The notes below the pieces were generated by a model. That model did not search any database. It was not told the origin of the DNA and saw only the letters and a program-made list of their open reading frames with translations. From the human T2T-CHM13v2.0 reference genome, Homo sapiens: 64,000 nt of DNA. This document shows positions 1 through 64,000 of the stretch, in pieces. The stretch lies in the NCBI RefSeq assembly GCF_009914755.1, contig NC_060938.1. The stretch is one strand, 5' to 3'. How positions within the stretch are numbered: position 1 is the stretch's first letter; every line of letters starts with the position of its first letter. Made by a program: the position numbers and the translations under genes.

Positions 1-3000
1 GAATGGAATGGAATAGAGTGGAATGGAATGGAGTGGAGTGGAGTGGAATGGAGTGCAATGGAGTGAAATGGAGTGGAGTGGAATCGAGTGGAGTGGAATG
101 GAATGGAGTGGAATGGAATGGAGAGGAAATGAATGAAATGGAATGCAACACAGTGGAATGAAGTGGAGTAGAGTGCAATGGAGTTGAGTGGAGTGGATAG
201 GAATGCAGTGCAATGGAATGGAATGGAATGTAAGGGAGTAGAGTGGAGGGGATTGGAGTGGAGTGGAGTAGAGTGGAATGGAGTGGAATGGCATGGAGTG
301 GAGTGGAATGGAATGGAATGGAATGAAATTGAAAGGAATGGAAAGGAATGGAATGCAACGGAATGGAACAGAATGGAGTACAGTGGAGAGGAGTTGAGTG
401 GAGTGGATCGGAGTGCAGTGGCATGGAATGGAAAGGAATGGAATGGAATGGAATGGAATGGAACAGAATAGAAAGGAATGGGATGGAGTGGAGTGGAATG
501 GAAAGGAGTGGAGTGGAATGTAATGGAATGTAATGGAATGGAAAGGAATGGGATGGAGTGGAGTGGAATGGAAAGGAGTGGAGTGGAATGTAATGGAGTG
601 AAGTGGAATGGAATGGAGTGGAGTGGAATGGAATGGAGTGGAGTGGAATGGAGAGGAGTGCAGTGGAATGGTATGGATTGGAATGGAAAGGAAGGGAGTG
701 GAGTGCAGTGGAGTGGATTGGAGGGCAGCAGAATTGAATGGAGTGGAGTGGAGTAGAGTGGAGTGGAGTGGAGTTGAGTGGGGTGCATCGGAGTGCAGTG
801 GAATGGAATGGGAAGGAGTGGAGTTTAGTGGAGTGGAGTGGAGAGGAATTTAATGGAAAGGAGTGGACTGGAATTGTTTGGAGTGGATAGGAATGGAATG
901 GAACATAAAGGAATGGAATGGAATGGAAAGGAATGGAACGGAATGGAGTGGAGTGCAGTGGAGTTGAGTCGAGTCAATCTGAGTGCAGTGGAAAGGAAAG
1001 GAATGGAATAGAATGGAATGGAATGGAACGGAACGGAACGGAACGGAACGGAATGGAATGGAATGGAGTGAAGTGGGATGGAAGGGAGTGCAGGAGAGTA
1101 GAGTGAAGTGGAGTGCAGTGGAGTGGAGTGGAATGGAATGGAATGGAGTTGAATGGAATGGAAAAGAATGGTGAAATGCATTGTGAGCTATGATTTTGCC
1201 ACTGCACTACAGTCTGGGTGACAAAGTGAGATCCAATTGAAATAAAGTAATCGAATGGAATGCAGTAGAATGGAAGGGAATGGATTGGAGTGGAGTGGAG
1301 CAGAGTGGAGTGGAGTGGAGTGCAGTGGACTGGAGTGGAACGAGGGGAATGGAATGGAGTAGAGTGGAATGGAATGGAAAGGAACAGAATGGAATGGAAG
1401 GTAAAGGAATGAAGTGGAGTGGAGAGTAGTGCAGTTGAGTGGAGTGGATCGGAGTGCAGTGGAATGGAATGGAATGAAATGGCATGGAATGGAGTGGAAT
1501 GGAATGGAGTGGAGTGGAGTAGAGTGGTGTGGAGTGGAGTGGAATGGAATGGAATGGAATGGAATGCAATGGAATGGTGAAACGTAATGTGAGCTAAAAT
1601 TGTGCCACTGCAATACAGTCTGGGTGACAGAGTGACATCCAATCGAAATAAAGCAATGGAATTGAATGGAGTAAAGTGGAAAGGAATGAGGTGGAGTGGA
1701 ATGGAATGCAGTGGAACGGAGTGGAATGGAGTGTACTGGGATGGAGTAAAGTGGAATTGAGCAGAACGGAAAGAAATGCAATAGAGACGAATGGAATGGA
1801 ATGGAATGAAGTGGAATGCAGCATAATGGAATGGAGTGGAGTAGAATGGAGAGGAATGGAATGGAATGGAATGGAATGGAAATGAGTGGAATGGAATGGA
1901 ACGCAAATCAGTGGAATGGAATGGAGTGGAGTGGAGAGGAGTGGAATGGAGTGAAGTGGAATGGGGTGGAATGGAGTAGAATGTAGTGGAATGGAGTGAA
2001 ATGGAGTGGAATGTAATGGAGTGGACTGGCATGGAATGGAGTGGAATGGAACAGAATGGTACAGAATGAAACGGAATGGAATGGAACAGAGTGGAGTGGA
2101 GTGGAGTTGAGAGGAGTGGATCGGAGTGCAGTGGAACGGAATGGAATGGAATGGAGTGGAGTGGAGTGGAGTAATGGAATGGAGTAAAATGGAGTGGAGT
2201 GGAAGGGAGTGCAGTGGAATGGAGTAGAATGCCATGGAACGGAATGGAGTGGAGTGGAATGGAGTGGAATGGAATGGAATGGAATTGAATGGAATGAAAT
2301 AGAATGGAATGGAAGGGAAAGGAGTGGAGTGAAGTGGAGTTGAGTGGAGTGGACTGGCGTGTAGTGGAATGGAATGGAATGGAAGTTAATGAAATGGAAT
2401 AGAGTGGAGTGGAATGGAATGGAGTGGTATGGAGTGGAGTGGAGTGGAATGGAGTGTAGTGGAATGGAGTGGAGTGGAATGGAGTGGAAAGAATTAAATG
2501 GAATAGAGAGGAATGGAATGGAATAGAATGGAATGACGAGGAATATAGTATAATGGAGTGGAGTGGAGTGGAATGGAGTTTAGTGGAATGGAGTGGAATG
2601 GAATGGAAAGGAATGCAATTGAGTGGAATGGAATGGAGTGGAGTGGAGTGGAGAGGAGTGGAGGGGAGTGCAGTGGAATGGAGTGCTATGGAGTGAAATG
2701 GAGTGGAGTGGAGTGGAATGGAATAGAGTGGAATGGAATGAAACGGTACAGAACGGAAAGGAACAGAATGGAAAGGAGTGGAGTTGAGTGGAGTGTAGTG
2801 GAGTAGAGGGGAGTGGATTGGAATGCAGTGGAATGCAATGGAATGGAATGGAAAGGAGTGGAGTGGAGTGCATTGGAGTGGAGTGGAGGGGAATGGAGTA
2901 GAATGGAGTGGAATGGAGTGGAGTGGAGAGGAATGGAGTGGAATGGAATGGAAGGAATGGAATGGAACCAAATGGAAGGGAATGGAGTGGAGTGGAGTAG

Positions 3001-6000
3001 ATTTGAGTGGAGTGGAATGGAGTGCAGTGGAATGGATTGGAATGGAATAGAATGGAATGGAATGGAATGGAGTGGAGTGGAGTGGAGAGGGAGGGAATAG
3101 AGTGGAGTAGAGTGGAGTGGACAGGAATGGAGTGGAGTGGAATGGAATGGAATGGAATGGAATGGAGTGGAATGAAAAGGAATGGAGTGGAGTGGAATGG
3201 GCTGCAATGGAATGGAATGGAGTGGAGTGGAATGGAATGGAGTGGAGTGGAATGGAATTGAGTGAAGTGGAATGGAAGGGAGTGGATTGGAGTGGAATTG
3301 AGTGGAGTGGAATGGAATGTAGTGGAGTGGAATGGAGTGAAGTGCAACGGAATATAATGGAGTGGAATGGAATAGAATGGAGTGGAGTGGAGTGGAGTGG
3401 AATTGATTGGAGTGCAGTGGAATGGAATGGAATGGAATGAGGGGAGTGGAGTGGAATGAATGGAGAGGAACGAAATGCAGTACAGTGGAATGGAATGGAA
3501 TGGAACGAAATGGAATGGAATAGATTGGAGTGTAATGGAACGGAATGGAAAGGAGTGGAGGGGAGTGGAGTGGAGTGGAGTTGAGTGGAGTGTATCAGAG
3601 TGCAGTGGACTGGAATGGAATGGAATGAAATGGAAAGGAGTGGAGTGGAATGAAATTTAATAGAACGAAGTGGATTGGAGTGGAGTGGAGTGGAGTGGAG
3701 TACAGTGGAATGGAGTGGAGTGTAGTACAATGGGATGGAGTGGAGTGTAGTACAATGGAATTGAGTGGACTGTAGTACAATGGAATGGAGTGGAGTGCAA
3801 TGGAATTGAATGGAATGGAGTGGAGTGGACTGAAATGGAATCCAGTGGAGTGATGTGGAGTGGAGTGGAACGGAGTGGAGAGGAATGGCATGGAATGGAA
3901 TGGCATGGAATGGAATGGAATGGAATAGAATGGAATGGAATGGAGTGGAATGGAATGGAATGGAATAGAATGGAATGGAATGGAGTGGAATGGAATGGAG
4001 TGGAGTGGAATGGAATGGCATGGAAAGGAATGGAATGGAATGGAGTGGAGTGGAATGGAGTGGAGTGAAGTGGAATTGAATGGAGTGGAGTAAAATGGAG
4101 TGGAGTGAAGTGGAATGGAAGGGAGTGGATTGAAATGGAGGGAAGTGGAGTGTAATGGAATGGAGTGTAATGGAATGGAGTGGAGTGGATTGGAGTGCAG
4201 TGGAGTGGATCGGAGTGCTGTGGAATGGAATGGAACGGAATGGAATGGAATGGAGTGGAGTGCAGTGGAGTAGAGTGGAGTGGATTGGAATGGAGTGGAA
4301 AGGAATGAAATGGAACGGAATGGAATGGAACGGAATGGAAAACAGTGGACTGGAGTGAGGTTGAGAGGAATGGATTGGAGTGCAGTGGACTGGAATGGAA
4401 AGGAAAGTAACGGAGTGGAGTGGAATGGAATGGAGTGGAGTGGAGTGAAGCGGAGGGGAGTTGAGTGGAGTCGAACGGAATGAAATGGAGTGGAGTGGAG
4501 TGGATTGGAGTGTAATGGAATGGAATGGAATAGAATGGAATGAAATGGAACGGAATGGAATGGTGAAATGAAATGTGAGCTAAAATTCTGTCACTGCACT
4601 CCAGTCTGGGTCACAGAGTGAGATCCAGTCGAAATAAAGGAATGGAATACAATGGAGTAGAATTTCATGGAAGGGAGAAGAGTGGAATGGAATGGAGTGG
4701 AATAGAGTGGAATAGAGTGTAATGGAGTGGAATGGAATTGAATGGAGTGGAATGGAATTGAGTGGAGTGGAATGGAATGGTATGGAAGGGAGAGGAATGG
4801 AATGGAAAGGAGGAGAATGTAGTGTAGTGGAATGGAAAGGAGTGGAAGGAGTGGAGTGAAATGGAGTGGAATGGAGTGGCATTGAAAGGAATGGAATGAA
4901 ATGGAATGGAATGGAGTGGAGTGGAATGGAATGGAGTGGAATGGAGTGGATGGAAGTGGAATGGAGTGAAATGGAGTGGGTGGACTTCAGTGGAGTGGAA
5001 TGGAATGGAATGCAGTGGAGTAGAATGGAATGGAATGGAATGGAATGGAATGGAGTGGAGTGGAGAGGAATGGAATGGAGTGGAGTAGTGTGGAGTGGAG
5101 TGGTGTGGAGTGTATAGGAGTGCTGTGGACTGGAATGTAATGGAATGGAATGAAATCGAATGGAATGAAGAGGAGTGGAATGGAATTTAATGGAATGGAG
5201 TGGAGTAGAGGGGAGTGGAGTAAAATGGAATGGTGTGGAGTGGAATGGAATGGAATGGAATGGAATGGAATGAAGTGGAGTGGAGTGGATTGGAGTGGAG
5301 TGGAATGGATTGGAATGGAGAGGATTGAAATGGAATGCAATGTAATGGAAAGCAGTGGCATAGAGTGAAATGGAATGGATTGGAGTGCAGTGGAGTGGAG
5401 TGGAATGGAGTGGAGTGCAGCAGATTGGAGTGCAGTGGAGTGGAGTGGAACGGAGTGGAATGGAAAGGATTGGAATGGAATGAAATGGAATGGTGAAATG
5501 AAACGTGAGCTAAGATTGTGCCACTGCACTCCAGTATGGGTGACAAAGTGAGATACAGTCTAAATAAAGGAATGGAACGGAATGGAGTAAAATGCAATGG
5601 AATGGAGTGATGTGGAATGTAACGGAGAGGAAAGGAGTGGAGTAGAGTGGATTAGAGTGGAGTGGAATGGAATGGAGTGGAGTAGAACGGAACAGAACAG
5701 AACGGAATGGAACAAAGTGGAATAGAGTGGAGTGGAGTTGATTGGAGTGGATCGGACTGCAGTGGAATGTAATGGAATGTAATGGAAAGGTATGGAGTTG
5801 AGAGGAGTGGAGTTTAGTGAAGTGGAGTGGCGTTTAGTGGAGTGGAGTGGAATGGAGTGGAGTGGAAAGGAATGGAAGTGAGAGGAATGGAATGGAGTGT
5901 AGTGCAATGCAGTAGAGTGGAATGGACTGACATGGAGTGGAATGGAATGGAGTTTAGTGGAGTGGAGTGGAGTGGAATGGAGTGGAATTAGAGTGGAGTG

Positions 6001-9000
6001 GAATGGAGTGGAATGGAGAGGAATGGAATGGAATCGAGAGGAATGGAGTGGAGTGGAATGGAGTGGAATGGAATGTACTGAAATGGAGTGGAATGGAATG
6101 GAGTTTAGTGGAGTGGAGTGCAGTGGAATGGAGTGAAATGGAGTGGAGTGGAGTGCAGTGGAGTGTAATGGAGTTGAATGGAATGGAACAGAATGGAATG
6201 GAATGGAATGGAGTGTAGTGGAGTTGAGTGGATTGGAATTGAGTGGAGTGTGTCGCAGTACAGTGGAATGGAATGGAATGGAATGGAATGGAATGGAGTG
6301 TAGTGGAGTGAAGTTTAATGTGGTGGAGTGGAATGGAGTGTAGTAGAGTGGAGTGGAGAGGACTGGAGTGGAATGTGAAGGTACGGAGTGGAATGGAGTG
6401 GAGTGGAGTGGAATGGAATGGAATGGAAAGGAATGCAATGCAATGGAAAGGAAAGGAATGGAACGGAACAGAATGGAGTTGAGTGGAGTGCAGTGGAGTT
6501 GAGTGGAGTGGAGTAGAGTGGAGTGGTGTAGAGTGGACTGGAGTGGAATGGAATGAACTGGAATGGAATGGACTGGAACGGTGAAATGAAATGTGAACTA
6601 TGATTGTGCCACTGCATTCCTGTCTGAGTGACAGAGTGAGACCCAGTCGAAGTAAGGAATGGAATGGAATGGAGTAGAATGGAATGTAATGGAGTGGAGT
6701 GCAGTGGAAGGGAATGGTGGGGCATGGAGTGGAGTGGAGTGGAATGGAGTGGAGTGGAATGGATTGCTGTATAACGGAGTGGAATGGAGTGGAGTGGAAT
6801 GGACTGCATTGGAATGGAATGGTGTGGAATGGAATGGAAAGGTACGGAACAGAACAGAATGGAACAGAGTGGAGTGGAGTTGTGTGGAGTGGATGGGAGT
6901 GCAGCGGAATGAAATGGTATGGAATGGAATGGGGTGGAGTGGAGTGGAGTGGAGTGGAGTGAAGTGGAGTAGAATAGAGTGGAATGGTATGGAGGGGAGT
7001 GGAAAGGAATGGAACAGAATGGAACGGAATGGAATGGAACAGAATTGAATGGAACAGAACTGAACGTAGTGGAGTGGAGTGGATTGGACCGGAGTGCAGT
7101 GGAATGGAATGGAATGGAATGGAAAGGAATGGAATGCAATGGAAAGGAATGCAATGCAAGGCAATGGAATGGAATGGAATGGAATGGAATGGAATGGAAT
7201 GGAACGGAATGGAATGGAATGGAATTGGATGAAATGGAATGGAATGGAACAGAATTGAGTGGAGTGGAGAGTAGTGGAGTGGAGTGGAATGGAATGGAAT
7301 GGAAAAGAATGGAATGGAATGGTGAAATGTAGTGTATGCTAAGATTGTGCCACTGCACTCCAGTCTGGGTGACAGAGTGAGATCCGATTGAAATAAGGGA
7401 ATGGAATGGAATAAAGTAGAATGGAATGGAATGGAATAAAATGGAATTGGATGGATTGGAATGGAGTGGAGTGGATTGGAATGGTGTGTAATGGAGTGGA
7501 ATGGAATGGAATGGAGTGGAATGTAATGGAGAGGAATGGAAGAGAGAGGAGTGGAGAGGAACGGATTGAGGTGGAATGGAGTGGATTGGAATGCAGTGGA
7601 ATGGAGTGGAATGGAATGGAGTGGAGTCAAGTTGAGTGGAGTGGAGTGGAATGGAATGGTGTAGAATGGAATGGAACGGAACAGAACGGAATAGAATGGA
7701 ACGGAATGGAATGGAATGGTTGGAGTGGAGTGGAATTGGGTGGAGTGGATCGGACTGCAGTGGAATGGAATGGAATGGAATGGAATGGAATGGAATGGAA
7801 TGGAATGGAATGAAGTGGAGTGGAGTTAAGTGGAGTGGAGTGGAATGGAGTTGACTGGAGTGGAGCAGAGTGGAGTGGAGTGGAGTGGAATGGACTGGAA
7901 TGGAGTGGAATCGAATGGAGTAGAGTGGAATAGAATGAAATGGAATGGAATGCCATGGAATGGAAAGGAGTGGAATGGAAAGAAATGGAGTGGAGTGGAG
8001 TGGAATGGAATTGAGGGGAATGGAGAGAAGTGGAGTGGAGTGGAATGGAGTGGAGTGGAATAGAATGGTTGGGTATAGAATGGAACGCAACCGAATGGAA
8101 GGGAACGGAATTGAGCTTAGTGCACTGGAGTGGAGTGGAGTTGAGTGGAGTGGATCGGAGTGCAGTGGAATGGAATGCAATGGAATGGAATGGAGTGCAA
8201 TAGATTGGAATGGAATGGAATGCTGAAATGAAATGTGAGCTAAGATATTGCCACTGCTCTCCAGTCTGGATGACAGAGTGAGATCCAGTCGAAATAAATG
8301 AATGGAATGAAATGGAGTAGAAACGAAAGGAATGTAGTGGATTGGATTGAAGTGGAATGGATTGGAATGGAGTGGAATGGAGTGGAATGGAATGGAATGG
8401 AGTGCAATGGAATGGAGTGCAATGGAATGGAATGGAATGGACTGGAGTGGAATGGAATGGAGTGGAATGGAGTGGAGTGGAGTGGAGTGGAGAGGACTGG
8501 AGTGTAGTGGAGTGGATTGGAGTGGAGTGGAGCGGACTGGAGTGTAATGGAGTGGAATGGAGTGAAATGGAGAAGAGTGGAAAGGAGTGGAGTGGAATGG
8601 AATGGAGTGGAATGGTATGGAAAGTAAAGGACTGGAAAGGAATGGAATGGAATAGAATGGAAAGGAGTGGTTTGCAGTGGAATGGAATGGAATGGATTGC
8701 AGTGGAGTGTAGTGGAGTGGAGTGGAATGGAGTGGAATGGAATTTGAGTAGAGTGGAATGGAATGGAATGGAAAGGAATAGTATGGAATGGAATACAATG
8801 GAATGGAATGGAATGGAATGAAATGGAATGGAATGGGACGGAGTGGAGCAGAGTGGAGTGGAGTGGTGTTGATTAGAATGGATTGGATTACCGTAGAATG
8901 GAATGGAATGGAATGGAATGGAATAGAAAGGTGTGCACAGGAATGGAGAGGAGTTGAGTGGAGTGGAGTGGAATGGAAAGGAATGGAATGGAATGAAATG

Positions 9001-12000
9001 GAATGGTGAAATGTAATGTGTTCTAAGATTGTGCCACTGAACTCCAGTCTGGGTGACAGAGTGAGATCCAGAAGAAACAAAGGAATGCAATGGAATGGAG
9101 TAGAATGGAATTGAATAGAGTGGAGTGAAATGGAATGGAGTGGAATGGAGTGGAGTGGTTTGGAATGGAGTGGAATGGAATGGAGTTCAGTAGACTATAG
9201 TGGAACGGAGTGGAATGGAGTGAAATTGTGTTGAGTGGAGTGGAATTGAATGGCATGGAATGGAATGGAACAGAACAGAACAGAATGGAACGGAATGGAA
9301 AAGAGTGGAGTGGAGTGGAGTTGCGTGGAGGGTATCGGACTGCAGTGGAATGGAATGGAATGGAATGGAATGGAATGGAGTGGATTGGAGTGGAGTAAAG
9401 TACAGTGGAGCAGAGTAGAGTGGAATGGAGTGGAATAGAGTGAAAAAGAGAGGAGTAGAAAGGAGTGGAGTGGAACGGAATGGAGTGGAATGGAATGGAA
9501 AGCAAAGGATTGGAACCTAATTGAACGGACTGCAGTCGAGTGGAGTGGAAAGGAATGGAATGGAATGGAAGGGACTGGTGTGCAATGGAATGGAATGGAA
9601 TGGAATGGAATGGAATGGAGTGGAGTGGAGTGGAGTGGAGTGGAGTGAAGTGGAGTGGAATGGAGAGGAATGGAATGGAGTGGAGTGGCATGGAATGAAA
9701 TGGATTGAAACGGAATGGAATGGAATAGAATGGAATCCAAAAAAACGGAATGTAGTGGAGTGGAGAGGAGTGGATTTGACTGGAGAGGATCAGAGTGCAG
9801 TGGAAGGGGATGGAATTTAGTGGAGTGGAATGGAATGGAATGGAAAGTGGTGGAGTGGAATGGAATGGAGTTGAGTGGCATGGAATAGAATGGAATAGAA
9901 TGGAATTGAATGGAATGGATTGAAATGGAATGGAGTGGAATGGAATGGAATGGAATGGAATGGAATAGAATGGACTGGTGAAATGTAATGTTACCTAAGA
10001 TTGTGCAACCGCACTCCAGTCTGGGTGACAGAGTGAGATCCAATGGAAATAAAGGAATGCAATGAAATGGCGTAAAGAGGAATGGAATGAAATGGAATGG
10101 AGTGGAGTGGAGTAAAATGGAGTGGAATGGAATGGAAAGGAATGGAGTGGAATGAAATACAATGGAGTAGAATGGAGTGGAGTGGAGTTGAACGGATTGA
10201 AGTGGAATGGAGTGGATTGGAATAGAGTGGAATTGAGTGAAATGGAATGGAATGGAGTGGAATGGAAGAGAATAGAGTGGAATGGTATGGAGTGGAGTGG
10301 AGTAGAATGGAGTGGAATGGCGTGAAATTGAGTGGAATGGAAGGGATTGGAGTGGAATTGAAGGGAGTGGAATGGACCGGAACAGAACGGAATGGTATGG
10401 AATGGAGTGGAGTGGAGTGGAGTCGATCAGAGTGCAGTGGAATGGAATGGAAAGGAGTGGAATGGAGTTTAGTGGAGTGCAGTGGAGTGGAGTAGAGTGG
10501 AATGGAATGGAGTAAAATGGAGTGGAATGGAATGGATCAGAAGGGAACGGAGTGGAGTGGAGTGGGATTGAGTGGAGTGGATAAAAGTGCAGTGGAAAGG
10601 AATGGAATTGAATATAATGGAATGGAGTGAAGTGTAATGGAACGGAATGGAATGGAGTGGAGTGGAATGGATTGTAGTGGAATGGAGTGGAGTGGAGTGG
10701 AATGGATTGGAGTGGAGTGGAATGGAAAGGAATGGAGTGGACTGGAATGGAATGTAGTGTAATGGAACGGAGTGGAGTGGAGTGGAGTTCATCACAGTGC
10801 AGTGGACTGGAATGTAATGTAATGTCATGGAATGGACTGGAGTGGAATGGAATTTAGTGGAAAGCAGTGGAATGGAGTGCAGTGGAGATTAATGGAATAG
10901 AGTGGAGTGGAATGGAATGGAATGCCATGGAATGACATGGAGTAGAGTTTAGTGAAATGGAATGGAGAGGAGTGGAGTGGAGTGGAATGGAGTGGACTGC
11001 AGTGGATTGGAGTGCAGTGGAATAGAGTGGAGTGGAACGGAGTGGAATGGAAGGGAATGGAATGGAACGGAATGCAAAGGAATGGTGAAATGAAATGTCA
11101 GCTAAGACTGTGCCACTGAACTCCAATCTGGGTGACAGAGGGAGATCCAGTCGAAATAAAGGAATGGGATGTAATGGAGTAAAATCCAATGGAATGGCAG
11201 TGGAGTGGAATGGAATGGAGTGGAAAGGAGTGGACTGGAGTGGAGTGGAATGGAGTGGAAAGGAGTGGACTGGAGTGGACTGGAGTGGAGTGGAATGGAG
11301 TAGAGTGGAATGGAGTGGAATGGAGTGGAATGGAATGGAATGGAATGGAATGAGGTGGAATGGAATGCAATGTAGTGGAACGGAATGGAGTGCTGTGGAG
11401 TGCAGTGGAATGGATTGGAATGGAGAGAAAGTAGTGGAGAGGAATGGAGTGGAGTGGAATGGAATGGATTAGAAAGGAACAGAATGGAATGGAACAGAAA
11501 GGAATGGAATGGAGAGTTTAGGAGTGGAGTAGAGTTGAGTGGAGGGGATCAGAGTGCAGTGGAATGGAATGGAATGGAATGCAATGGAATGGAATGGTGA
11601 AATGAAATGTGAGCTAAGACTGTGCCACTGCACTCCTGTCATGGAGACAGAGTGAGATCCATTCGGAAATAAGGAATGGAATGCAATGGAGTAGAATGGA
11701 ATGGAATGGAGTGGAGTGGAATGGAATGGAGTGGAATGCATGGGAGTGGAGTGGAATGGAGTGGAGGCAAATGGAGTGGTGGAATGGTGTATATTGAAGT
11801 CTAATGGAGTGAAATGGAGTGGAATGGAGTGAAATGGCATGGAGTAGAATTCGGTGGAATGGAATGGAACGGAATGGAATGGAATGGAGTGGAGTGGAAT
11901 GGAGTGGAGTGGAGTGGAATGTTATGGATTGGAGTGGAATATAATTGGGTGGAGTGGAATGGAGTGGAAAGAGTGAAATTGAGTGGAGTGGAATGGAAGA

Positions 12001-15000
12001 GAATGCAATGGAACAGAATGGAATGGAATGGAAAAAGAAGGTGTGGAGTGGATTGGAGTTGACTGGAGTGGATCGGAGGGCAGTGAAGTGGAATGGAATG
12101 GAATGGAGTGGTGTTTAGTGGACTGGAGTGGAGAGGAGTGGAGTGAAGTGGAATGGAATGGAGTGGAGTGGAATGGAATTGAATGGAGTGGAGTGTAGTG
12201 GAGTGGAAAGGAGAGGAATGGAATTGAATAGAATGGAATGGAAAGGAGTGCAATGGAATGGATTGGAGTGAAGTGGAGAGGAATGAAGTGGAATGGAGTG
12301 GAAGGGAATGGAATGGAGTGGATTGCAATGGAATTGATTTTAAAGGAATGGAGTCAAGAGGAGTGGAGTGAAGTGGAGTGGAGTGGAATGGAGTGAAATG
12401 GAGTGAAAAGGAGTTGAGTGGAATGGAATGGAGTGAAATGGAATGGAACGGAATGGAATGGAACAGAATGGAATGGAGAGGAGTGGAGTGGACAGAAGTG
12501 CAGTGGAATGGAATGGAGTGGAGTACAGTGGAGTGGAGTGGAGTGGAGTGGAGTGAAGTGGAATGGAAGGGAATGGACTGTAGTGGAGTGGAATGGAATT
12601 GAGTGGAGTGGAGTGGAATGGAATGGAATGGAATGGAGAAGAATGGAATGGAGAAGAATGGAATGGAGAAGAATGGAATGGAAAGAATAGGAATGGAATG
12701 GAATGGAATGGAATGGGATGGAGAAGAATGGAATGGAAAGAATAGGAATGGAATGGAATGGAATGGAATGGAATGGAATGGAATGGAATGGAATGGAATG
12801 GAATGGAATGGAGAAGAATGGAATGGAAAGAATAGGAATGGAATGGAATGAAGTGGAATGGAATAGAGTGGACTGGACTGGATTGAAGTTAAGTGGAACG
12901 GAATGGAGTAGAATGGAATGGAGTGCAATGGAATGCAGTGGAGTGGATCGGAGTGCAGTGGAATGGAATGGAAAGGAGTGGAGTGGAGTGGAGTGGAGTG
13001 GAATGGAATGGAGTGGAATGGAGTGTAATGAAATGGAAAGGAAATGAATGGAATGGGGTGGAGTGGAATGGAATGAAGTGGAATGGAATGGAGTCCCATT
13101 GAGTCGAGTGGAATGGAGTGGAATGGAGTGAAATGGAGTGGAGTGGAATGGAGTGCCGTGGAATGGAAAGGATTAAAATGAAATAGAATGGAACAGAATG
13201 GAACGGAGTGTAGAGTAGTGGAGTGTAGTGGAGTTGAGTGGAGTGGATCAGAGTGCAGTGGAATGGAATGGAATGGAATGTAGTAGAGTCGAGTGGAGTG
13301 AAGTGGATTGCAGTGGAATGGAGTGGAATGGAATGGAGTGGAGAGGAATGGAATGGAATGGAATGGAATGGAATGGAATGGAATGGAGTGAAGTGGATTG
13401 GAATGGAATGGAGTGGAGTTGTGTGGAGTTGAGTGGAGGGGAGTGGACTGAAGTGGAATGGAATGGAATGGTGAAATGAAATGTGAGCTATGATTGTGCC
13501 ACTGCATTCCAGTCTGGGTGACAGAGTGAGATCCAATTGAAATAAAGGATTGGAATGGAATGGAGTGGAGTGGAATGGAATGGAGTGGAGTGGAATTGAA
13601 TGGAGTGGAATGGAGTGGAATCGAATGGAATGGAATGGAGTTGAATGCAATGGAATGGAGTAGAGTGGAATGGAGCGGAGTTGAGTGGAATGAAGTCGAA
13701 TGGAATGGAACAGAATGGAACGGAGTGCAGTGGAGTGCATCGTAATGGAGTTTTCAGAAGTGGATTGGAGTGCAGTGGAATGGAATGGAATGGAATGGAA
13801 TGGAATGGAATGGAGTGGAGTGGATTGGAGTGGAGTGGAACGGAGTGTAATGGAATAGAGTGGAGTGGAATGGAATGGAATGGAACAGAATGGAATGAAA
13901 TGGAAATGAATGGAATAGAATGGAATGGAACGGAGTGGAGTAGAGTGGAGTTCAGTGGAGTGGATCGGAGGGCAGTGGAAAGGAATAGAATGAACGGAAT
14001 GGAATGAAGTGTAGTGGAATGGAATAAGGTAGAATGGAGTGGCTTGGAGTGGAATGAAGTGCCATGGAGTGAAATGGAGTTTAGTGGAATGGCGTGGAGT
14101 GGAATGGAGTGGAATGGAATAGAATGGAATGGAGTGGAATGGAATGGAATGTAGTAGAATGGAGTGGAGGGAAATGGAATGCAGTGAAATGGAATGGAGT
14201 GGATTGTAATGGAATGGAGTGGAATGGAAAGGAATGGAACGGAACTGAACAGAGTGGACCGGATTGGATTGGAGTTGATTGGAGTGGAGTGGAGTGGTTC
14301 AGAGTGCAGTGGAAAGGAATGGAATGAAAAGGAGTGGAGTGCTGTGGAGTGGAGTGGATTGCAGTGGAGTGGAAAGGGGTGGAATGGAGTGAAATGGAGT
14401 GGAATGGAATGGAGTGGAGTGGAATGGAACAGAGTGGAAAGGAACGGAATGGAATGGAATGGAACGGAATGGAATTGAAGGGAATGGAACAGAGTGGAGT
14501 GGAGTGGAACGGTGTGGAATGGAATTGATTGGAGTGGAATGGAATGGAAAGGAACGGAATGGAATGGAATGCAATGGAATGGAATTGAAGGGAATGGAAC
14601 AGAGTGGAGTGGAGTGGAGTTGAGTTGAAAGGATCGGAGTGCAGTGGAATGGACTGGAATGGAATGTAATTTAGTGGAATGGAATGGAATGGAGTGGAGA
14701 GGAGTGGAGTGCAGAGGAGTGGAGTGGAGTGGAATGGAATGGAATGGAGTGGAGTGGAATGGAATGGAATGGGTTGGAATGGAATGGAGTGGAGCGGAGT
14801 GGAGTGGAGTGCAGTGGAATGGAGTGGAATGGAGTGGAATGGAGTGAAATGAAGTGGAGTGAAATTGAGTGGAGTGGAATGGAATGAAGTGGAATGGAAC
14901 GGAATGGAATGGATCAGAATGGAAAAGAGTGGGGTGGAGTGGTGTGGAGTGGAGTGGAGTGGAGTGGAATGAAGTGCAGTGTAATGGAATGGAATGGAAT

Positions 15001-16499
15001 GGAGTGGAGTGGAGTGTGGTGGAGTGGAGTGGAATGGTTTGGAATGGAATGGATTGGAGTGGAATGGAATGGAATGGAACAGAATGGAATGGAATGCAAC
15101 AGAATGGAATTGAGCGGAAAGGAATGGAGTGGACTCCAGTGGAGTGGAGTTGAGTCGAGTGGATGGGAGTGCAGTGGAATGGAATGGAATGGAAAGGAGT
15201 GGATTTGAATGGAATGGGGTGCAATTGAATGGAATGGAGTGGAGAGGAGTGGAGCGCAGTAGAATGTAGTGGAGTGGAATGGAATGGATTGAAGTGGAAT
15301 GAAATGGAATGGAATGGAGTGGTGTGTAGTGTAATGGCATGGAGTGGACTGGAGTGGAACGGAGGGGAGTGGAGTGGAATGGAACAGAGTGTGATGGAAT
15401 GGAGTGGAGTGGACTGGAATGCAGTGGAGTGCATTGGAGTGGAGCTGAGTGGAGTGCAGTGGAATGGAATGGAAAGGAGTGAAGTGGAATGGAATGGAAA
15501 GGAACAGAATGGAATAGAATGCAATACAATGGAAAGGTAACATGAAATGTGAGCTAAGATTGTGCCACCGCAGTCCAGTCTGCGTGACAAGGTAAGACCC
15601 AGTCGAAATAAAGGAATGGAATGGAATGGATTAAAACGGAATGAAATGCATTGGAGTGGAATGCAATGGAGTGAAATGGAGTTTAGTGGAGAGGAATGGA
15701 GTGGAGTGTAATGGAGTGGAGTGGAGAGAACTGCACTGGAATGGAATAGAATGAAGTGGAATGGAGTGGAAAGGAATGGAATGGAATTGAGTTTAATGGA
15801 ATAGAATGGAGTCTAATGGAATGGAGTGGAGTGGAGTGGAGTAGATTGGAGTGGAATGGAATGTCATGGAGTGAAATGGGGAGGAATGGAACAGAACGGA
15901 ATGGAATAGAAAGGAATGGAACAGAGAGGAGTGGAATGGAGTGGAGTTGACTGGAATGCAGTGGACTGCAGTGGAGGGCAGTGGAGTTTAGTGTAGTGGA
16001 GTGGAATGTAATGGAATGGAGTGGAGTGGAGTGGAATGGAATGGAACGGAATGGAATGGAATGGAATGGAATGGAACGGATTGGAATGATGACATGAAAT
16101 GTGAGCTAAGTTTGTGCAACTGCACTCCATTTCGGTGACAGAGTGAGATCCAGTCGAAATAAAGGAATGGAATGCAGTGGAATAAAATGTAATGGAATGG
16201 AGTGGAGTGGAATGGAATGGAGTGGAGTGGAGTGGAATGGAATGGAATGGAATGGAATGGAATGGAATGGAATGGAATGGAGTGTAATGGAGTGGAGTGG
16301 AATGGAATGGATTGCAGTGGAATGGAGTGGATTGGAATGGAGTGGAATGGGGTGGAATGGAATGTAATGGAATGGAATGGAGTGGAATAGAATGGAAGAG
16401 AGTGGAATGGAAAAGCATGGAGTGGAGTGGATTAGAGTGGAATGGAATGGAGAGGAATGGAAGGGAAAGGAATGGAATGGAATGGAATGGAGTGGAGTG

Positions 16500-16760
16500 G
16501 AGTGGAGTCGAGTGGAGTGGATTGGAGTGCAGTGGAAAGGAATAGAACACAATGCAATGAAGTCGACTAGAGTGCAGTGGAATGGAATGGAATGGAACAG
16601 AATGGAGTGGAGTCGAGTGGAGTGGAGTGCAGTGGAAAGGAATGGAACACAATGCAATGAAGTCGACTAGAGTGCAGTGGAATGGAATGGAATGGAACAG
16701 AATGGAGTGGAGTCGAGTGGAGTGGAGTGCAGTGGAAAGGAATGGAACACAATGCAATGG
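16500..16760 (+). repeat. 100-bp tandem repeat (~2.5 copies)
   Basis: AACACAATGCAATG at 16546, 16646 and 16746; AGTCGACTAG at 16561 and 16661. Confidence 0.9.
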
Positions 16761-19700
16761 AGTGGACTGGAGTGCAGTGGAGTGGAGTGGAATGGAGTGG
16801 AATGGAATGGAATGAATTGGAGTGGAATGGAATGGCATGGAAGGGAATGGAGTGTAATGTAGTGGAATGGAGTGGAATGAAATGAAGTGGAGCTGAATGG
16901 AGTTGAACAGAGTGACATGGAATGGAATAGAATGGAGTGGAATGGAATGGAATGGAGCAGAATGGAATGGAGTGAAGTGGAGTGGAGTGGAATGGAGTTG
17001 AATGGAGTGAAATGGATTGGAGTAGAATGGAATGGAATGGAGTGGAATGGAACAGAACAGAACGGAATGGAATGGAACAGAACAGAATGGAACGGAGTGG
17101 AGTGGAATGGAACATAGTGGAGTGGAGTGAAGTGGAGTGGATGGGAGTTTAGTGGAGTGGAGAGGAGTTCAATGGAGTTGAAGGGAATGGAGTGGCATGG
17201 AATGGAATGGAATTGAACAGCATGTAATGGAATGCAATGGAATGGAATTGAATGGAACAGAACGGAATGGAGAGGAGTGGAGTGGAGTGGAAAGGAGTGC
17301 AGTGGAAAGGAATGGAATGGAACGGAATGGAATGGAATGGAAAGGAATGGAGTGGAATGGAATGGAAAGGAGTGGTGTGGCATTGAATCGAATGGAATGA
17401 AGTGGAGGGGAATGGAGTGGAGTTGAGTGGAGTGGATCAGAGTGCAATGGAATAGAATGGAATGGAATGGAATGGAATAGAATGGAATGGAATGGAATGG
17501 AATGGAATGGAATGGAATGGAATGCAGTGGAGAGGAGTGGAATTGAATGGAAAGGAATGGAATGGAATGGAATTAAATTGAGTGTAGTGGAGTGGATTGG
17601 AGTAGAGTGGAGTGGAATGTAGTGGAATGGAGTAGAATGGAATGGAATTGACGGGAGTGGAATGGAATTGAGTGGAATGGAGTGGAGTGGAGAGGAATGG
17701 AGTGGAATGAAATGGAACGGAGTGGAAAAGAGTGGAATGGAATGCAATGGAACAGAATGGAATGGATTGGAGTGGAATGGATTGAAGTGGAGTGGAGTGG
17801 AATAGAATGGAATGGAATGGAGTAGAGGGTAATGGAATGGAGTGGAGTGGATTTAAGTGGAATCCAGTGGAGTGGAGTGGAATGGAGTGGAGTGGAATGG
17901 AGTGGAGGAGCGTGTAATGGAATGGAATGGAATGAAATGGAATGGAACGGAATGGAATTGTGAAATGAAATATGAGCTAAGGTTATGCTACTGCACTCCA
18001 GTCTGAGTGGCAGAGTAACATCCAGTAGAAATAAAGGAGTGGAATGGAATGGAGTAGAATGGAATGAAGTAGAGTGCAATGGAATAGAGGGACATGGTGT
18101 GGAGTGGAGTGGAATGCAGTGGAGTGGAATTTAGAGGAGTGGAATGGAGTGGAGTGGAATTTAGTGGAGTGGAATGGAGTGGAATGGAAAGGAATGGAAT
18201 GGAGTGGAATGGAACAGAACGAAGGAAATGGAATGGAACAGAATGGAACGGAGTGGAATGGAGTGAAGCGGAGGTGATCGGAGTGGAATGGAGTGGAGTG
18301 GAGAGGAGAGGAGTGGAATTCAGTGGAGTCGTTTGGAGTGGATTGGAGTGGAGTGGAGTACTACGGAATTGCATGGAATGGAAGGGCATGGAATGGCATG
18401 GAATTGTATGGATTGGAATGGAATGGAACGGAATGGAATGGAACAGAATGGAACGGAGAGGAGTGGAGTTGAGTGGACTTAATCGGAGTGCAGTGGAATG
18501 GAATGGAATGGAATTAAATGGAATGGAAACGAGTGGGGTGGCATTGAATGGAGTGGAGTGGAGTGGAGTTGAGTGGAGAGGATGGGAGTGAAGTAGAATT
18601 GAACGGAATGGAATGCAATGGAGTGTAGTGGAGTGGAATGGAGTGTAGTGGAGTGGATTTGAGTGGAGTGGAGTGGAGTGGAGTGGAGAGGAGTGGAATG
18701 GAATGGAATGGAGTGGAGTTTAATGGAATGGAATGAAATGGAATGGAATGCAACAGAAAGGAGTGAAACAGAACAGAACAGAGTGGAGTGGAGTAGAGTG
18801 GAGTTGAGTGGAGTGGATTGGAGTACAGTGGAATGGCATGGAATGGAAAGCAAAGGAATGGAATGGAATGGAGTGGAATGCAATGGAATGGAATGGAGTG
18901 GAATTGAATGAAGTGGAATGGAGAGAAATGGAGGGGAGTGGAGTGGAGTGGAATGGAATGGAGTGGAATGGAACGGAATGGAACAGAACAGAAAGGAACG
19001 GAATGGAACAAAGTGTAGTACAGTAGAGTGGAGTGGACTGGAGTGGAGCGGAGTGGAGTGGAGGGGAGAGGAATGGAATGGAGTGGAATGGAATGGAGTG
19101 GAGTGGAAAGCATTGGAATGGAATGGATTGGAATGGAAAGGAACAGAATGCAATGGAACGGAATGTAACTGAGTGGAGTGGAGTGGAGTGCAGTGGAGTT
19201 GAGTGTAGTGGAATGTAATGGAATCTAGTGGTATGAAATGGAATGTAGTGGAATGAAACGGAATGATGTGGAATGGAATGCAATGTAGAGGTGTGGAATG
19301 GAATGGAATTTAGTGGAATGCAATGGAAAGGAATGGAATGGAAAGGAATGTAACGGAGTGTAGTGGAGTGTAGTGGAGTTGAGTGGAGTGGATTGGAGGA
19401 CAGTGGAATGGAAAGGAATGGAATGGAATGGATTCGAATGGAATGGAATGGAATGGAATGGAATGGAAGGGAATGGAGTGTAGTGGAATGGCATGGAGTG
19501 TAGTGGAATGGCATGGAGTGTAGTGGAACTGAATGGAATGGAATGGATTGGAGTGGAGTGGAATTGAATGGAATGGAGTGAAGTAGAATGGAATGGAGTG
19601 GAGTGGAGTGGAATGAAATGGAGTAGAATGAAGAGGAGTGGAATGGAATGAAGTGGAGCTGAGTGAAGTGAAATGGAGAGGAATGGAGTGGAATGCAGTG

Positions 19701-22700
19701 GAGTGGAATGGAACGGAGTGGAACACAATGGAACGGAAGGGAAAAAACGGAGTGGAATGGACATGAATGGAGTGGAGTGGAGTTGATTGGAATGGAGTGG
19801 AGTTGATTGGAGTGGATCAGAGTGCAGTGAAATGGAAGTGATTGGAGTGGAATGGAGAGGAGTGGAGTGGAATGGAATGGAGTGGAATGCAGTGGAGTGG
19901 AATGGAATGGAATTAAATGGAATGGAATGGAATGGAACGGAACAGAACAGAGTGGAGTGGAGTGGAGTTGAGTTCAGTGGATCTGAGTGCAGTGGAATGG
20001 ACTGGAATGGAGTGGAGAGGAATTGAATGGAAAGGAGTGGAGTTGAGTTGGGTGGTGTGAAGTTGAATGGAGTGTAATGGAGTGAAATGGAGTGGAGTGG
20101 AATGGAATGGAAAGTAACAGAATGGAACGGGATGGAATGCAATGGAGTGGAGTGGAGTCAAGTGGACTGGAATGCAGTGGAGTGGAGTGGATTGGAGTAG
20201 AATGGAATGGAGTGGAATGGAATGCAGTGAAGTGTAATAGAATGGAATGGAATAGAATGGAATGGAATGGCACGGTATAGAATAGAACAGAACAGAATGG
20301 AGTGCAGTGGAGTGGAATGGAGTGGAGTTGTGTGGAATTAATTGGAGTGCAGTGGAATGGAACGGAATGGAATGGAATGGAATGGAGTGGAGTGAAGTGG
20401 AATGGAATGCAACGGAATGGTATGTAATGGAATGGAATGGAGTGGAGTGGAGTGGAATGGAATGGAGTGGAGTGGAGTGGAATGGAATGGAATAGAGTGG
20501 AGTGGAGTGAAGTGGAATGGAATGGAGTGGAGTAGAATGGAATGGAATGGAGTGGAGTGGAGTGGCGTAGAATGGAGTACAGTGGAGTGAAATGGAATGG
20601 AGTGGAATGGAATAGAGAGGAGTGGAATGAAATGGAATGGAGAGGAGTGGAATGGAGAGGAGTAGAGTGGAGTGGAGTGGAATGGAGTGGAATGGAGAGG
20701 AATGGAGTGGAGTGGAAATGAATGGAAATGAGTCGTATGGAATGGAGGGGAGTTGAGTGCAGTGGAGTGGAGTGAAGTGAAATGGAGTGGGATGGAGTGG
20801 AGTGGAATGGAATGGGGTGGAATGGAATGGAACAGAATGGAATGGAACCTAACGGAACGTAGCAGAGTGGGGTGGAGTGGAGTTGAGTGGAGAGGATTGG
20901 AGTGCAGTGGAATGGAAAGGAATGAAGTGGAATGGAGTGGAGTGGAGAGGAATGGAGTGGAGTGGAGTGGACTGGAGTGGAGTGGAATGGAATGGAATTA
21001 AATGGAATGGAATGGAATGGAATGGAATGGAATGGAATGGAATAGAACGGAACAGAACCAAGTGGAGTGGAGTGGATTGGAGTTCAATGCAGTGAATCGG
21101 AGTGCAGTGGAATGGAATGGAACAGTATTGAATGGAATGGAATGAAGTGGAGTGGAGTGGAATGGAATGGAATGGAATGGAGTGGACTGGAGTGATGTGG
21201 AGTAGAATTGAGTGGAAAGGAGTGAAATGGAGTGGAGTGGAATGGATTGGAGTGGAATGGAATATAATGGAACAGAACTGAATGGAATGGAATGGAACGG
21301 AACGGAACGTGATAGAGTGTAATGGAGTGGAGTTGAGTGCAGTGGATCGGAGTGTATTGAAATGGAATGGAATGGAGAGGACTGGAGTGGAATGGAATGG
21401 AAGAGAATTGAATGGAATGCAGTGGAGTGGATTGGTGTGGAGTGGAGTGGAGTGGAATGGAATGAAATGGTGTGGAATGGAAAGAAATGGAGTGAAATGG
21501 AATGGAATGGAGTGGAGTGGAATGAATGGAATGCAATCAAAAGGAATGGAATGGTTTGGATTGGAATGGAATAGAGTGGATTGGAGTGGAATAGAATTTA
21601 GTGGATTGGAATGGAATGGAATGGAGTGGAAGGCAGTGGAATGGAATGGAATGGAATGCAATGGAATGGAAATGAATGGAATGGTTTGGAATGGAATGGA
21701 AATGAATGGAATGGAATTGAAAGGAGTTCAGTGGAATTGAATGTAATTGAAAGGAGTGGAGTTGAATGGAGTGGAGTGACTTGGAAGGGATAGAAGTGGA
21801 GTGGAATGTAATGGTATAGAAAGGATTGGAATAGAATGGAGTGGAGTGGAGTGGAATGGAATGGAGTGGAACGGAATGGAGTGGATGGGAATGGAAAGGA
21901 GTGCAGCAGAGTTGAGTGGAGCGGAGTGAAGTGGAATGGAATGGAATGGAGTGGAGTGACGTGGATTGAATGGAATGGAAAGGAATGGAATGGAAAGGAG
22001 TGGAATGGTGAAATGAAATGTGAGCTAAGATTGTGCCACTGCACTCCAGTCTGGCTGACAGAGTGAGATCCATTATAAATAAAGGAATGGAATGGAATGG
22101 AGTACAATGAAATGGAGTGGAGTGGAGTGGAATGGAATGGAGCGGAATGGAGTGAAACGGAATGGAGTGGACTGGAGTAGAGTGGAACGGAATAGAATTG
22201 AACGGAATGGAACGGAGTGGAACGGAATTGAATGGAAAGGAAGGTAACGGAGTAAAGTGGTGTAGAGTGGAGTGGAATGGAATGGAGTGAAGGGGAAAGG
22301 AATGGAATGGAATGGAATGGAATGGAATAGCACGGAATGAAGTGGAGTGGAGAGAAATGGAATGGAATGGAGAGGAGTGGAGTAGAATGGAGTGGAGTGG
22401 AGTAGAATGGAGTGGAGCAGAATATAATGGAGTGGAATGGAAATGAATGGAATGGAAAGGAATGAAACGGAATGGAATGGAGTAGAGTGGAGTCAAGTGG
22501 AGTTGAGTGGTGTGGATTGGAGTTCAGTGGAATGGAATGGAATGGAGTGGAATGGAGTGGAGTGAAGAGGAGTGGAGTGGCATGGAGTGGAATGGAGTGG
22601 AATTGAATGGAGTAGAGTGGAATGGAATGGAAAGGAATGGAATGGAATGGAATGGAATGGAATGGAATGGAATGGAATGGAATGGTGAAATAAAATGTGA

Positions 22701-47476: not shown

Positions 47477-48389
<913 letters not shown>

Positions 48390-61019: not shown

Positions 61020-61063
61020 GAAACTTCTTTGTGATGTGTGCGAAACTTCTTTGTGATGTGTGC
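61020..61063. repeat. Perfect 22-bp tandem duplication inside an alpha monomer
   Basis: GAAACTTCTTTGTGATGTGTGC occurs twice (61020-61041 and 61042-61063). Confidence 0.95.
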
Positions 61064-63920: not shown

Positions 63921-64000
63921 CAGAAACAATCTGAGAAACTTTTATTGTGATTTGTGCATTCACTTCACAGAGTTAAAACTTTCTTTTGATTGAGCAGTTT

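What the first reader, a model, noticed from the sequence alone, without database searches (positions are those of the whole stretch)
5424..5535. The cassette core is the reverse complement of the satellite's own GGAGTGCAGTGG motif, giving built-in fold-back stems
Seen: cassette CCACTGCACTCCA reads as antisense pentamers (CCACT-GCACT-CCA), and (T)GGAGTGCAGTGG is very frequent in the surrounding array. Example 1: TGGAGTGCAGTGG (5426-5438) can pair with CCACTGCACTCCA (5521-5533), a 13-bp stem with an 82-nt loop. Example 2: 11552-11562 can pair with 11625-11635. Example 3: GACTGGAGTGCAGTGG (16765-16780) is the perfect 16-nt reverse complement of the type A core CCACTGCACTCCAGTC (e.g. 7350-7365). 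The type A change CCAGCC>CCAGTC extends this complementarity. Inference: in an otherwise purine-rich, non-self-complementary strand, the cassettes are almost the only pairing partners. They could staple G-rich satellite RNA or ssDNA into loops. Alternatively, inverted homology could explain how the fragment was captured or how the GGAGT/GCAGT variants arose.
Basis: partly seen in the sequence, partly recalled or inferred. Interest (0 to 1): 0.75.

Follow-up and report, generated by a model that had tools for sequence, protein, structure and literature searches.

The report
Alu-tail fossil complementary to satellite pentamers
A short fossil of an Alu element's tail, copied many times inside a human pentamer satellite, happens to be complementary to common satellite variants, but nothing tested here suggests this pairing is more than an accident.

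Summary
TGGAGTGCAGTGG (5426-5438) is the exact reverse complement of CCACTGCACTCCA (5521-5533), and examples 2 and 3 are also exact. GGAGTGCAGTGG occurs 81 times in the satellite.

The "cassette" is a roughly 56-nt, CpG-decayed 3' tail of an Alu. It is embedded in the G-rich strand of a GGAAT/GGAGT (HSat3) array and amplified with it: 58 copies in the window, all on the + strand, and its junction occurs 703 times genome-wide. Alu fragments in HSat3 are already in print.

- Normalised to the parent GGAGTGGAGTGG, the motif is as frequent in cassette-free GGAGT-rich arrays (0.094) as in cassette-bearing ones (0.105; p=0.50).
- Its 1.8-fold excess over pentamer shuffles is shared by sibling motifs.
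- The core is not better conserved (0.889 vs 0.878; n=209) and is intact in only 46 of 209 copies.
- There is no fixed offset, proximity or local compensation.
- Similarity to antisense Alu stops at 12-13 nt.

Pairing potential is real in silico, but the usual predicted partner is plain (GGAGU)n. The GCAGT variant adds only about 4 kcal/mol.

Verdict: an incidental by-product of a known composite-satellite feature, of low interest.

The parts
1..60281 (+). GGAAT/GGAGT pentamer satellite (HSat3-type) array, G-rich on the + strand
   Evidence: Tokenisation gives GGAAT 31.5%, GGAGT 25.3% and GCAGT 2.2% of 11088 tokens. GC skew is about 0.8 up to 60 kb. TRF finds period 5/10 up to 60281.
5426..5438 (+). 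Satellite motif TGGAGTGCAGTGG (pentamers GGAGT-GCAGT-GG), 5' arm of example 1
5505..5560 (+). Cassette: 56-nt Alu 3'-tail fossil, followed by an A-rich tail remnant at 5561-5569
   Evidence: nhmmer hit 5482-5581. The cassette consensus matches the in-window AluY tail at 46 of 56 positions, and 5 of the 10 differences are at AluY CpGs.
5521..5533 (+). Cassette core CCACTGCACTCCA, 3' arm of example 1
   Evidence: A 15-bp stem (including one G-U) appears in the RNA centroid and in the DNA MFE.
11552..11562 (+). Example 2, 5' arm (GAGTGCAGTGG)
11625..11635 (+). Example 2, cassette core arm (CCACTGCACTC)
16765..16780 (+). Example 3: GACTGGAGTGCAGTGG, the only copy of this 16-mer in the window
7350..7365 (+). 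Type-A cassette core CCACTGCACTCCAGTC (one of 4 copies in the window)
47430..47842 (+). Cassette split by a later full-length Alu (47477-47773), with 14-nt direct duplications at 47463-47476 and 47775-47788
   Evidence: Sequence read. nhmmer finds the two half-hits. Rfam gives Metazoa_SRP E 1.2e-15 and mir-1268 E 4.7e-14.
47850..60200 (+). Sub-array with dense cassettes (28 cassettes, median spacing 396 nt) and few GCAGT motifs (7). Its commonest cassette type (18 of 28, GCT) keeps the AluY states at all three diagnostic columns.

Best explanation
The cassette is a fossil of the last ~56 nt of an Alu element plus a remnant of its A-rich tail. It became embedded once, in sense orientation, in the G-rich strand of an ancestral GGAGT-rich HSat3 repeat. 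It was then co-amplified and spread with the satellite, presumably by unequal exchange (inferred). Alu's CCACTGCACTCC is one mismatch away from the reverse complement of (GGAGT)2GG. GCAGT is a common one-step variant of GGAGT that exists in such arrays whether or not they carry cassettes. Perfect 12-13-nt complementarity is therefore an incidental consequence of what an Alu tail looks like and what this satellite looks like. The resulting stems are physically plausible in a G-rich transcript or in single-stranded DNA, but the sequences evolve as if unconstrained. The pairing is best read as a by-product without a selected function.
For: Shown.
(1) Alu identity. The cassette consensus aligns to the tail of the in-window full Alu at 46 of 56 positions, and 5 of the 10 differences are at CpG sites. 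That reference element matches Metazoa_SRP at E 1.2e-15.
(2) Single origin and spread. All 60 nhmmer hits in the window are on the + strand: 57 full cassettes, 2 halves of a split one, and the AluY's own tail. The satellite/Alu junction 20-mer occurs 703 times in the genome. The 100 places listed lie on C1, C3, C4, C9, C10 and C13. In the 7 other cassette-bearing loci every cassette lies on the G-rich strand.
(3) Only the core of Alu can pair. Of all AluY 12-mers, only those at positions 239-242 have a reverse complement in the satellite. Any 5'-truncated sense Alu that keeps those positions would carry it.
(4) The motif is independent of cassettes. In 99 kb of cassette-free GGAGT-rich arrays there are 72 motifs and a motif/parent ratio of 0.094. 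In 129.8 kb of cassette-bearing arrays there are 147 motifs and a ratio of 0.105 (Fisher p=0.50; p=0.53 with the window excluded). GGAGT-poor arrays have no motif and no sibling motifs. Within the window, the motif is rarer where cassettes are densest (7/123 vs 74/487 per parent, p=0.010).
(5) The context bias is generic. GGAGT-x-GG accounts for 0.34 of GCAGT tokens, 0.32 of GAAGT and 0.38 of TGAGT.
(6) No constraint on the core. Core column identity is 0.904 vs 0.881 (n=57) and 0.889 vs 0.878 (n=209; p=0.68). The exact core survives in 46 of 209. The C>T share is the same inside and outside the core (p=0.84).
(7) No spatial design. The most populated 5-nt offset bin holds 3 of 131 offsets. 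Median nearest-motif distance is 308 nt vs 387 +/- 73 for random positions. Own-flank duplex energy is -23.39 vs -23.56 kcal/mol for other cassettes' flanks (p=0.47).
(8) The GCAGT variant is not needed for pairing. The MFE partner is UGGAGUGGAGUGG in 24 cases, and contains GCAGUGG in 9 of the 53 paired cases. Duplex energy is -24.8 vs -20.7 kcal/mol.
(9) In print (passages seen): HSat3 arrays intermingled with Alu fragments on the Y and the acrocentrics (10.1101/2022.12.01.518724), and ancient TE fragments as part of HSat3 repeat units (10.1101/2021.07.12.452052).
Against: - GCAGT is the commonest position-2 variant of GGAGT (239 tokens vs 153 GAAGT and 151 GTAGT). It outnumbers the transition variant, which simple mutation rates would not predict.
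- Against token shuffles the motif is 1.8-fold enriched.
- Relative to the other 14 single-step variants, the motif is somewhat commoner in cassette-bearing arrays (0.079 vs 0.057; odds ratio 0.72, p=0.027). This weakens to p=0.25 without the window. Copies are not independent, so these p-values are too small.
- Cassette windows have about twice the predicted folding energy per nt of cassette-free windows, so a physical effect cannot be excluded.
- The cassette-free arrays could descend from a cassette-bearing ancestor.
- Only about 230 kb of arrays were sampled.
- No transcript or probing data were examined.
Confidence: 0.85

Rival explanations
1. Selected structural role. The Alu-tail cores act as staples that pair with GGAGU(G/C)AGUGG runs and fold G-rich satellite RNA, or single-stranded DNA at replication or transcription, into loops. 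The complementarity is maintained because it matters.
For: The cassette supplies all perfect inverted 12-mers within 1 kb (69 of 69). The core pairs with satellite in 53 of 56 MFE folds, and MFE per nt doubles. The ssDNA example folds with z -2.78. The core region gives about -23 kcal/mol against about -7.5 for the other cassette segments. Satellite III is transcribed essentially from one strand after heat shock at 9q12 (PMC2171959, passages).
Against: There is no extra conservation of the core, and the exact core survives in only 46 of 209 copies. There is no excess of pair-preserving substitutions, no fixed offset or proximity, and no own-flank advantage. The motif is rarest where cassettes are densest and equally common in cassette-free arrays. 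The 231-nt RNA example is not exceptional against shuffles (z -1.69, 11 of 200). Transcription of this chr14 array was not examined.
Confidence: 0.05
2. Inverted homology shaped the sequences. Either the GCAGT variant was created or spread by hairpin-templated (quasi-palindrome) correction of (GGAGT)n against the Alu core, or the Alu piece was captured through its antisense resemblance to the satellite.
For: The Alu core is one mismatch from the reverse complement of (GGAGT)2GG, and the G>C change that makes it perfect is the commonest position-2 variant. The motif is slightly over-represented relative to the other variants in cassette-bearing arrays (p=0.027).
Against: GCAGT also leads its siblings in cassette-free arrays (72 vs 44 GAAGT), and the parent-normalised frequency is equal (p=0.50). 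Motifs are no nearer to cassettes than random positions. Similarity to antisense Alu does not extend past the pentamer-explained 12-13 nt: downstream extension is 0 nt in 79 of 81 motifs, and the upstream single T is just as common in sibling controls. The 5' junction of the fragment lies 16 nt upstream of the core, not at it. The later AluY insertion shows an ordinary flanking duplication.
Confidence: 0.06
3. The satellite motif copies are themselves relics of antisense Alu fragments.
For: A 12-13-nt identity with antisense Alu.
Against: The flanks are pentamers: upstream mostly GGAGT, GGAAT or GGATT, and downstream AATGG or AGTGG. There is no extension into Alu sequence. No cassette or Alu hit lies on the - strand.
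Confidence: 0.01

Closest known systems
Alu fragments interspersed in HSat3 arrays of the Y and acrocentric chromosomes (T2T-Y preprint 10.1101/2022.12.01.518724, passages seen; T2T centromere preprint 10.1101/2021.07.12.452052, passages seen)
   Same: A short Alu-derived piece recurs inside pentameric HSat3 on an acrocentric short arm and on several other chromosomes. It decays without local homogenisation: only 22% of cores are intact.
   Different: The passages I saw do not mention the complementarity between the Alu core and GGAGT/GCAGT pentamers. I could not see their supplements or figures, and Bandyopadhyay 2001 (their ref. 58) is not held.
HSat1B (DYZ2) composite satellite with an Alu subunit (same two preprints, passages seen)
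   Same: An Alu-derived piece is part of a tandemly amplified satellite unit.
   Different: In the passages seen, HSat1B carries an ancient AluY subunit within a ~2.5-kb three-part repeat unit. Here only ~56 nt of the tail is present, at irregular spacing (median 396 or 951 nt).
Inverted-repeat Alu pairs forming long double-stranded RNA (recalled knowledge, not from a call)
   Same: Alu-derived sequence provides intramolecular complementarity in a transcript.
   Different: There is no second, inverted Alu: all copies are on one strand. The duplex is 12-15 bp with satellite pentamers, far shorter than an Alu-Alu duplex.
Non-canonical fold-back structures of the (GGAAT)n strand (Grady et al. 1992, as cited in PMC2171959; passage seen)
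   Same: The G-rich satellite III strand is proposed to adopt unusual structures.
   Different: Those rest on non-conventional base pairing of the pentamers themselves. The stems here are ordinary Watson-Crick pairs with a foreign insert.

Membership tests
Alu SINE (3'-terminal fragment) | Sequence homology to the Alu right-arm 3' end | tested here: met
   46 of 56 positions match the in-window full Alu, and 5 of the 10 differences are at CpGs. The reference element matches Metazoa_SRP at E 1.2e-15, which is 63.4 bits and below the gathering score of 70, and mir-1268 at E 4.7e-14. The 20-mer CCACTGCACTCCAGCCTGGG co-occurs with 'Alu' in 21 papers (listing only).
Alu SINE (3'-terminal fragment) | A-rich tail after the body | tested here: met
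   The consensus tail is GAAAGAAAGG (209 copies), or GAAATAAAGG in the window's type A. It is degenerate.
Alu SINE (3'-terminal fragment) | Target-site duplication of the original insertion | tested here: inconclusive
   The flanks are pentamer repeats on both sides, so a duplication cannot be told from the satellite itself.
Alu SINE (full element) | Dimeric ~280-nt body with left and right arms | tested here: not met
   Homology starts at GTGAGC, 16 nt before the core, and only ~56 nt are present. The full element at 47477-47773 is a separate, later insertion.
Human satellite 3 (HSat3) | Array derived from the pentamer GGAAT/CATTC | tested here: met
   GGAAT and GGAGT together are 57% of 11088 tokens. 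A review passage describes Sat III as GGAAT and GGAGT repeats, mainly on acrocentric short arms (PMC7767330).
HSat3 subfamily (Altemose 2014 A1-A6, B1-B5) | Presence of the subfamily-specific 24-mer of Table 1 | tested here: inconclusive
   The window has 0 hits to any of the 14 24-mers. Controls behaved as expected: the C9 loci hit B5, C24 hits A6, and L010, L019 and L027 have a few A4 hits. One 24-mer per subfamily is too thin a test.
Conserved RNA/DNA structural element | Paired positions more conserved than unpaired ones, or compensatory change | tested here: not met
   Core 0.889 vs 0.878 (p=0.68), and the C>T share is equal (p=0.84). Own flanks vs other cassettes' flanks p=0.47.
Conserved RNA/DNA structural element | Pairing in vivo | not testable with these tools
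   No probing or transcript data are available here.
Inverted-repeat Alu dsRNA | Two Alu copies in opposite orientation | tested here: not met
   All 60 hits are on the + strand.

The most novel reading that the evidence does not exclude
In GGAGT-rich HSat3 transcripts or single-stranded DNA, the dispersed Alu-tail cores are the only canonical pairing sites. They fold the satellite into loops of a few hundred nucleotides, roughly doubling predicted structure. This could affect RNA retention, R-loop or replication behaviour of acrocentric short arms. Alternatively, the GCAGT pentamer variant may have been fixed by hairpin-templated correction against the Alu core in the common ancestor of these arrays.
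Probability: 0.05. Interest if true: 0.5.

Novelty: already known. Interest (0 to 1): 0.13.

Why it matters
If the pairing were functional, it would be a rare case of a transposon fossil giving a satellite transcript a defined architecture, on the acrocentric short arms. As it stands, the result matters mainly as a clean negative. The cassette is the known Alu-fragment component of some HSat3 arrays. The complementarity follows from the Alu tail being one mismatch from antisense (GGAGT)n. It shows no sign of constraint. It is also a caution for repeat annotation and for probe or primer design: Alu-tail oligonucleotides containing CCACTGCACTCC can find near-perfect complements in GGAGT-rich HSat3.

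Tried and rejected
Of these, L015, L017, L020, L023, L029 and L030 turned out not to be pentamer satellite (0.0-1.5 GGAGT per kb) and entered no pool. L007-L009, L013, L014, L016 and L018 are GGAGT-poor HSat3 and were left out of the Fisher pools by the rule of at least 20 GGAGT per kb.
- Subfamily assignment with the Altemose 2014 24-mers gave nothing for the window.
- Jarmuz 2007 (PMC1821104) is not held. Bandyopadhyay 2001 was not seen.
- Altemose 2014 has 0 occurrences of 'Alu'.
- A search for GGAGTGCAGTGG with 'satellite' returned 15 papers, of which 12 were listed. None concerns HSat3 by title (listing only). That the complementarity is not in print therefore rests on this one search and on the passages read.
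- Relic-of-antisense-Alu origin of the motif: rejected.
- Fixed higher-order position of motif relative to cassette: rejected.
Full report
**Observation**

The window's first 60.28 kb is a pentamer satellite that is G-rich on the + strand. It is 73.8% purine and 4.9% C. After tokenisation, GGAAT is 31.5% and GGAGT 25.3% of 11088 tokens.

- 5426-5438 pairs with 5521-5533: 13 nt with an 82-nt spacer.
- 11552-11562 pairs with 11625-11635: 11 nt.
- 16765-16780 pairs with 7350-7365: 16 nt.

GGAGTGCAGTGG occurs 82 times on the + strand, 81 of them in satellite. It occurs 18 times as its reverse complement, against 0.04 expected from dinucleotide shuffles.

**What the cassette is**

A profile built from the 17 exact-core copies finds 60 hits, all on the + strand. 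They are 57 full cassettes, the two halves of one split cassette, and the tail of a full-length Alu.

That Alu (47477-47773) sits inside a cassette between 14-nt direct duplications. It matches Metazoa_SRP at E 1.2e-15 (63.4 bits, just under the gathering score of 70) and the Alu-derived mir-1268 at E 4.7e-14.

The cassette consensus aligned to this element's tail is identical at 46 of 56 positions. Five of the ten differences are at CpG sites. The cassette is therefore a CpG-decayed fossil of the last ~56 nt of an Alu, followed by a degenerate A-rich tail.

Two types exist.
- From 47.4 to 60.3 kb, 18 of 28 cassettes keep the Alu states at three diagnostic columns (GCTGAG, CCAGCC, CCTGTC). This is also the consensus of 209 cassettes from eight regions.
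- From 1 to 47.4 kb, 28 of 29 cassettes are the derived type A (GCTAAG, CCAGTC, CCAGTC).

The satellite/Alu junction 20-mer occurs 703 times in the assembly. The 100 places listed lie on C1, C3, C4, C9, C10 and C13. In every sampled locus the cassettes lie on the G-rich strand. This fits one ancient insertion amplified with the satellite.

**Is the satellite motif tied to the cassette?**

Pentamer-token shuffles give 45 +/- 6 motifs (maximum 65) against 81 observed. The same context preference holds for sibling variants. The fraction of tokens lying in GGAGT-x-GG is 0.34 for GCAGT, 0.32 for GAAGT, 0.38 for TGAGT and 0.24 for GTAGT.

GCAGT is the commonest position-2 variant, with 239 tokens against 153 and 151. 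This is a real but modest excess.

The natural control is decisive.
- Ten cassette-free but GGAGT-rich stretches (99 kb; C1 and C14) hold 72 motifs, 0.73 per kb, with a motif/parent ratio of 0.094.
- Nine cassette-bearing stretches (129.8 kb) hold 147 motifs, 1.13 per kb, with a ratio of 0.105 (Fisher p=0.50; p=0.53 with the window excluded).

Against my reading, the motif is somewhat rarer in cassette-free arrays when measured against the other 14 single-step variants (0.057 vs 0.079; p=0.027). Without the window this becomes p=0.25. The copies are not independent.

GGAGT-poor arrays (the C9 main block, C15, C24) have neither the motif nor its siblings.

Inside the window the motif is rarer where cassettes are densest. 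The 47.85-60.2 kb part has 7 motifs per 123 parents with 28 cassettes in 12.35 kb. The 1-47.4 kb part has 74 per 487 with 29 cassettes in 47.4 kb (p=0.010).

**Is the core constrained?**

- In the window, mean column identity is 0.904 for the 13 core columns, 0.881 for the 42 other non-CpG cassette columns and 0.886 for satellite flanks. The exact 13-mer survives in 13 of 57 copies, mid-range for sliding 13-mers (range 4-29).
- With 209 cassettes the figures are 0.889 vs 0.878 (p=0.68), and the exact core survives in 46 of 209.
- Pair-preserving C>T changes are 106 of 195 substitutions in the core and 108 of 204 elsewhere (p=0.84).
- There is no preferred motif-to-core offset: the fullest 5-nt bin holds 3 of 131 offsets.
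- The nearest motif is no closer than for random positions: median 308 vs 387 +/- 73 nt, and 27 vs 24.1 +/- 3.5 within 300 nt.
- A core pairs no better with its own flanks than with the flanks of other cassettes (-23.39 vs -23.56 kcal/mol; p=0.47). Mutated cores lose about 4.6 kcal/mol uncompensated.

**Does inverted homology explain origin?**

Among all 12-mers of the full Alu, only those at positions 239-242 have a reverse complement in the satellite. Any 5'-truncated sense Alu tail would therefore bring the core with it.

The similarity of the satellite motif to antisense Alu does not extend further. Downstream it is 0 nt in 79 of 81 motifs. Upstream it is a single T in 55 of 81, and that T is equally present next to sibling and parent motifs.

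The 16-nt match of example 3 is unique in the window.

**Pairing potential**

All 69 inverted 12-mer pairs within 1 kb involve a cassette, and only 20 of 1032 8-mer pairs are satellite-satellite.

- As ssDNA, the 131-nt example folds into the stem, with z -2.78 and 1 of 200 shuffles folding as well.
- As RNA, the 231-nt example has the stem in its centroid but is unexceptional overall, with z -1.69 and 11 of 200 shuffles.
- Over 56 cassette windows of 457 nt, the core pairs with satellite in 53.
- Predicted energy per nt is -0.115 vs -0.060 in 57 natural cassette-free windows (p=2e-17).
- The partner is plain UGGAGUGGAGUGG in 24 cases and contains GCAGUGG in only 9.
- The perfect duplex is -24.8 kcal/mol and the parent with one G-G mismatch is -20.7.

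The complementarity is thus a property of the Alu tail against GGAGT pentamers in general. The GCAGT variant adds little.

**Literature**

Passages of the T2T-Y preprint say that some HSat3 arrays are intermingled with Alu fragments, that those on the Y cluster with those on the acrocentrics, and that they show no local homogenisation. Passages of the T2T centromere preprint say HSat3 often includes fragments of ancient TEs in its repeat units, citing Bandyopadhyay 2001, which I could not see.

Altemose 2014 does not mention Alu. Jolly 2004 passages report one-strand, heat-induced satellite III transcription at 9q12. They also recall Grady 1992 on non-conventional pairing of that strand, which qualifies 'non-self-complementary'.

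I found no paper on the core/motif complementarity in one search (listing only).

**Verdict**

The feature is the known Alu-fragment component of some HSat3 arrays. The fold-back complementarity is real in silico, but by every evolutionary test available here it is incidental. In-cell pairing remains untested.

Noticed in passing
window 47463-47788: A full-length, little-diverged Alu (47477-47773, + strand) is inserted inside one Alu-tail cassette. It is flanked by a 14-nt direct duplication, GATTGTGCCACTGC, and it splits that cassette's core. This is an ordinary later retrotransposition into the satellite.
   Followed up: partly
window 1-47400 vs 47850-60200: The array has two sub-domains. 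The distal 12 kb has cassettes about every 396 nt (median), mostly of the Alu-like ancestral type (18 of 28), and few GCAGT motifs. The proximal 47 kb has the derived type A about every 951 nt (median) and 2.7-fold more motif per parent.
   Followed up: partly
window 60286-64000: The pentamer array ends at about 60281 and abuts a tandem array of period 171/341 bp with 76-81% matches. It looks like alpha satellite, by recall only.
   Followed up: no
L001, L002, L021, L022 (G000:C1:128011001-128050000): This is about 39 kb of very GGAGT-rich (44-58 GGAGT per kb) pentamer satellite on C1 with no cassette at all. GCAGT is nonetheless among the leading variants there. It is a useful natural control array.
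   Followed up: partly
window, whole array; also the cassette-free loci: The transversion variant GCAGT outnumbers the transition variant GAAGT: 239 vs 153 tokens in the window, and 72 vs 44 in GGAGT-x-GG context in cassette-free arrays. For GGAAT the order is the reverse (GCAAT 138 vs GAAAT 225). This is probably a founder effect of amplification, but it is unexplained.
   Followed up: partly
L019, L027, L028 (G000:C14:6080001-6120000): About 80-120 kb upstream of the window on the same chromosome lies a pentamer array in the opposite orientation (C-rich on +), without cassettes and with a few hits to the HSat3A4 24-mer. L029 and L030 (6.15-6.19 Mb) are not pentamer satellite.
   Followed up: no
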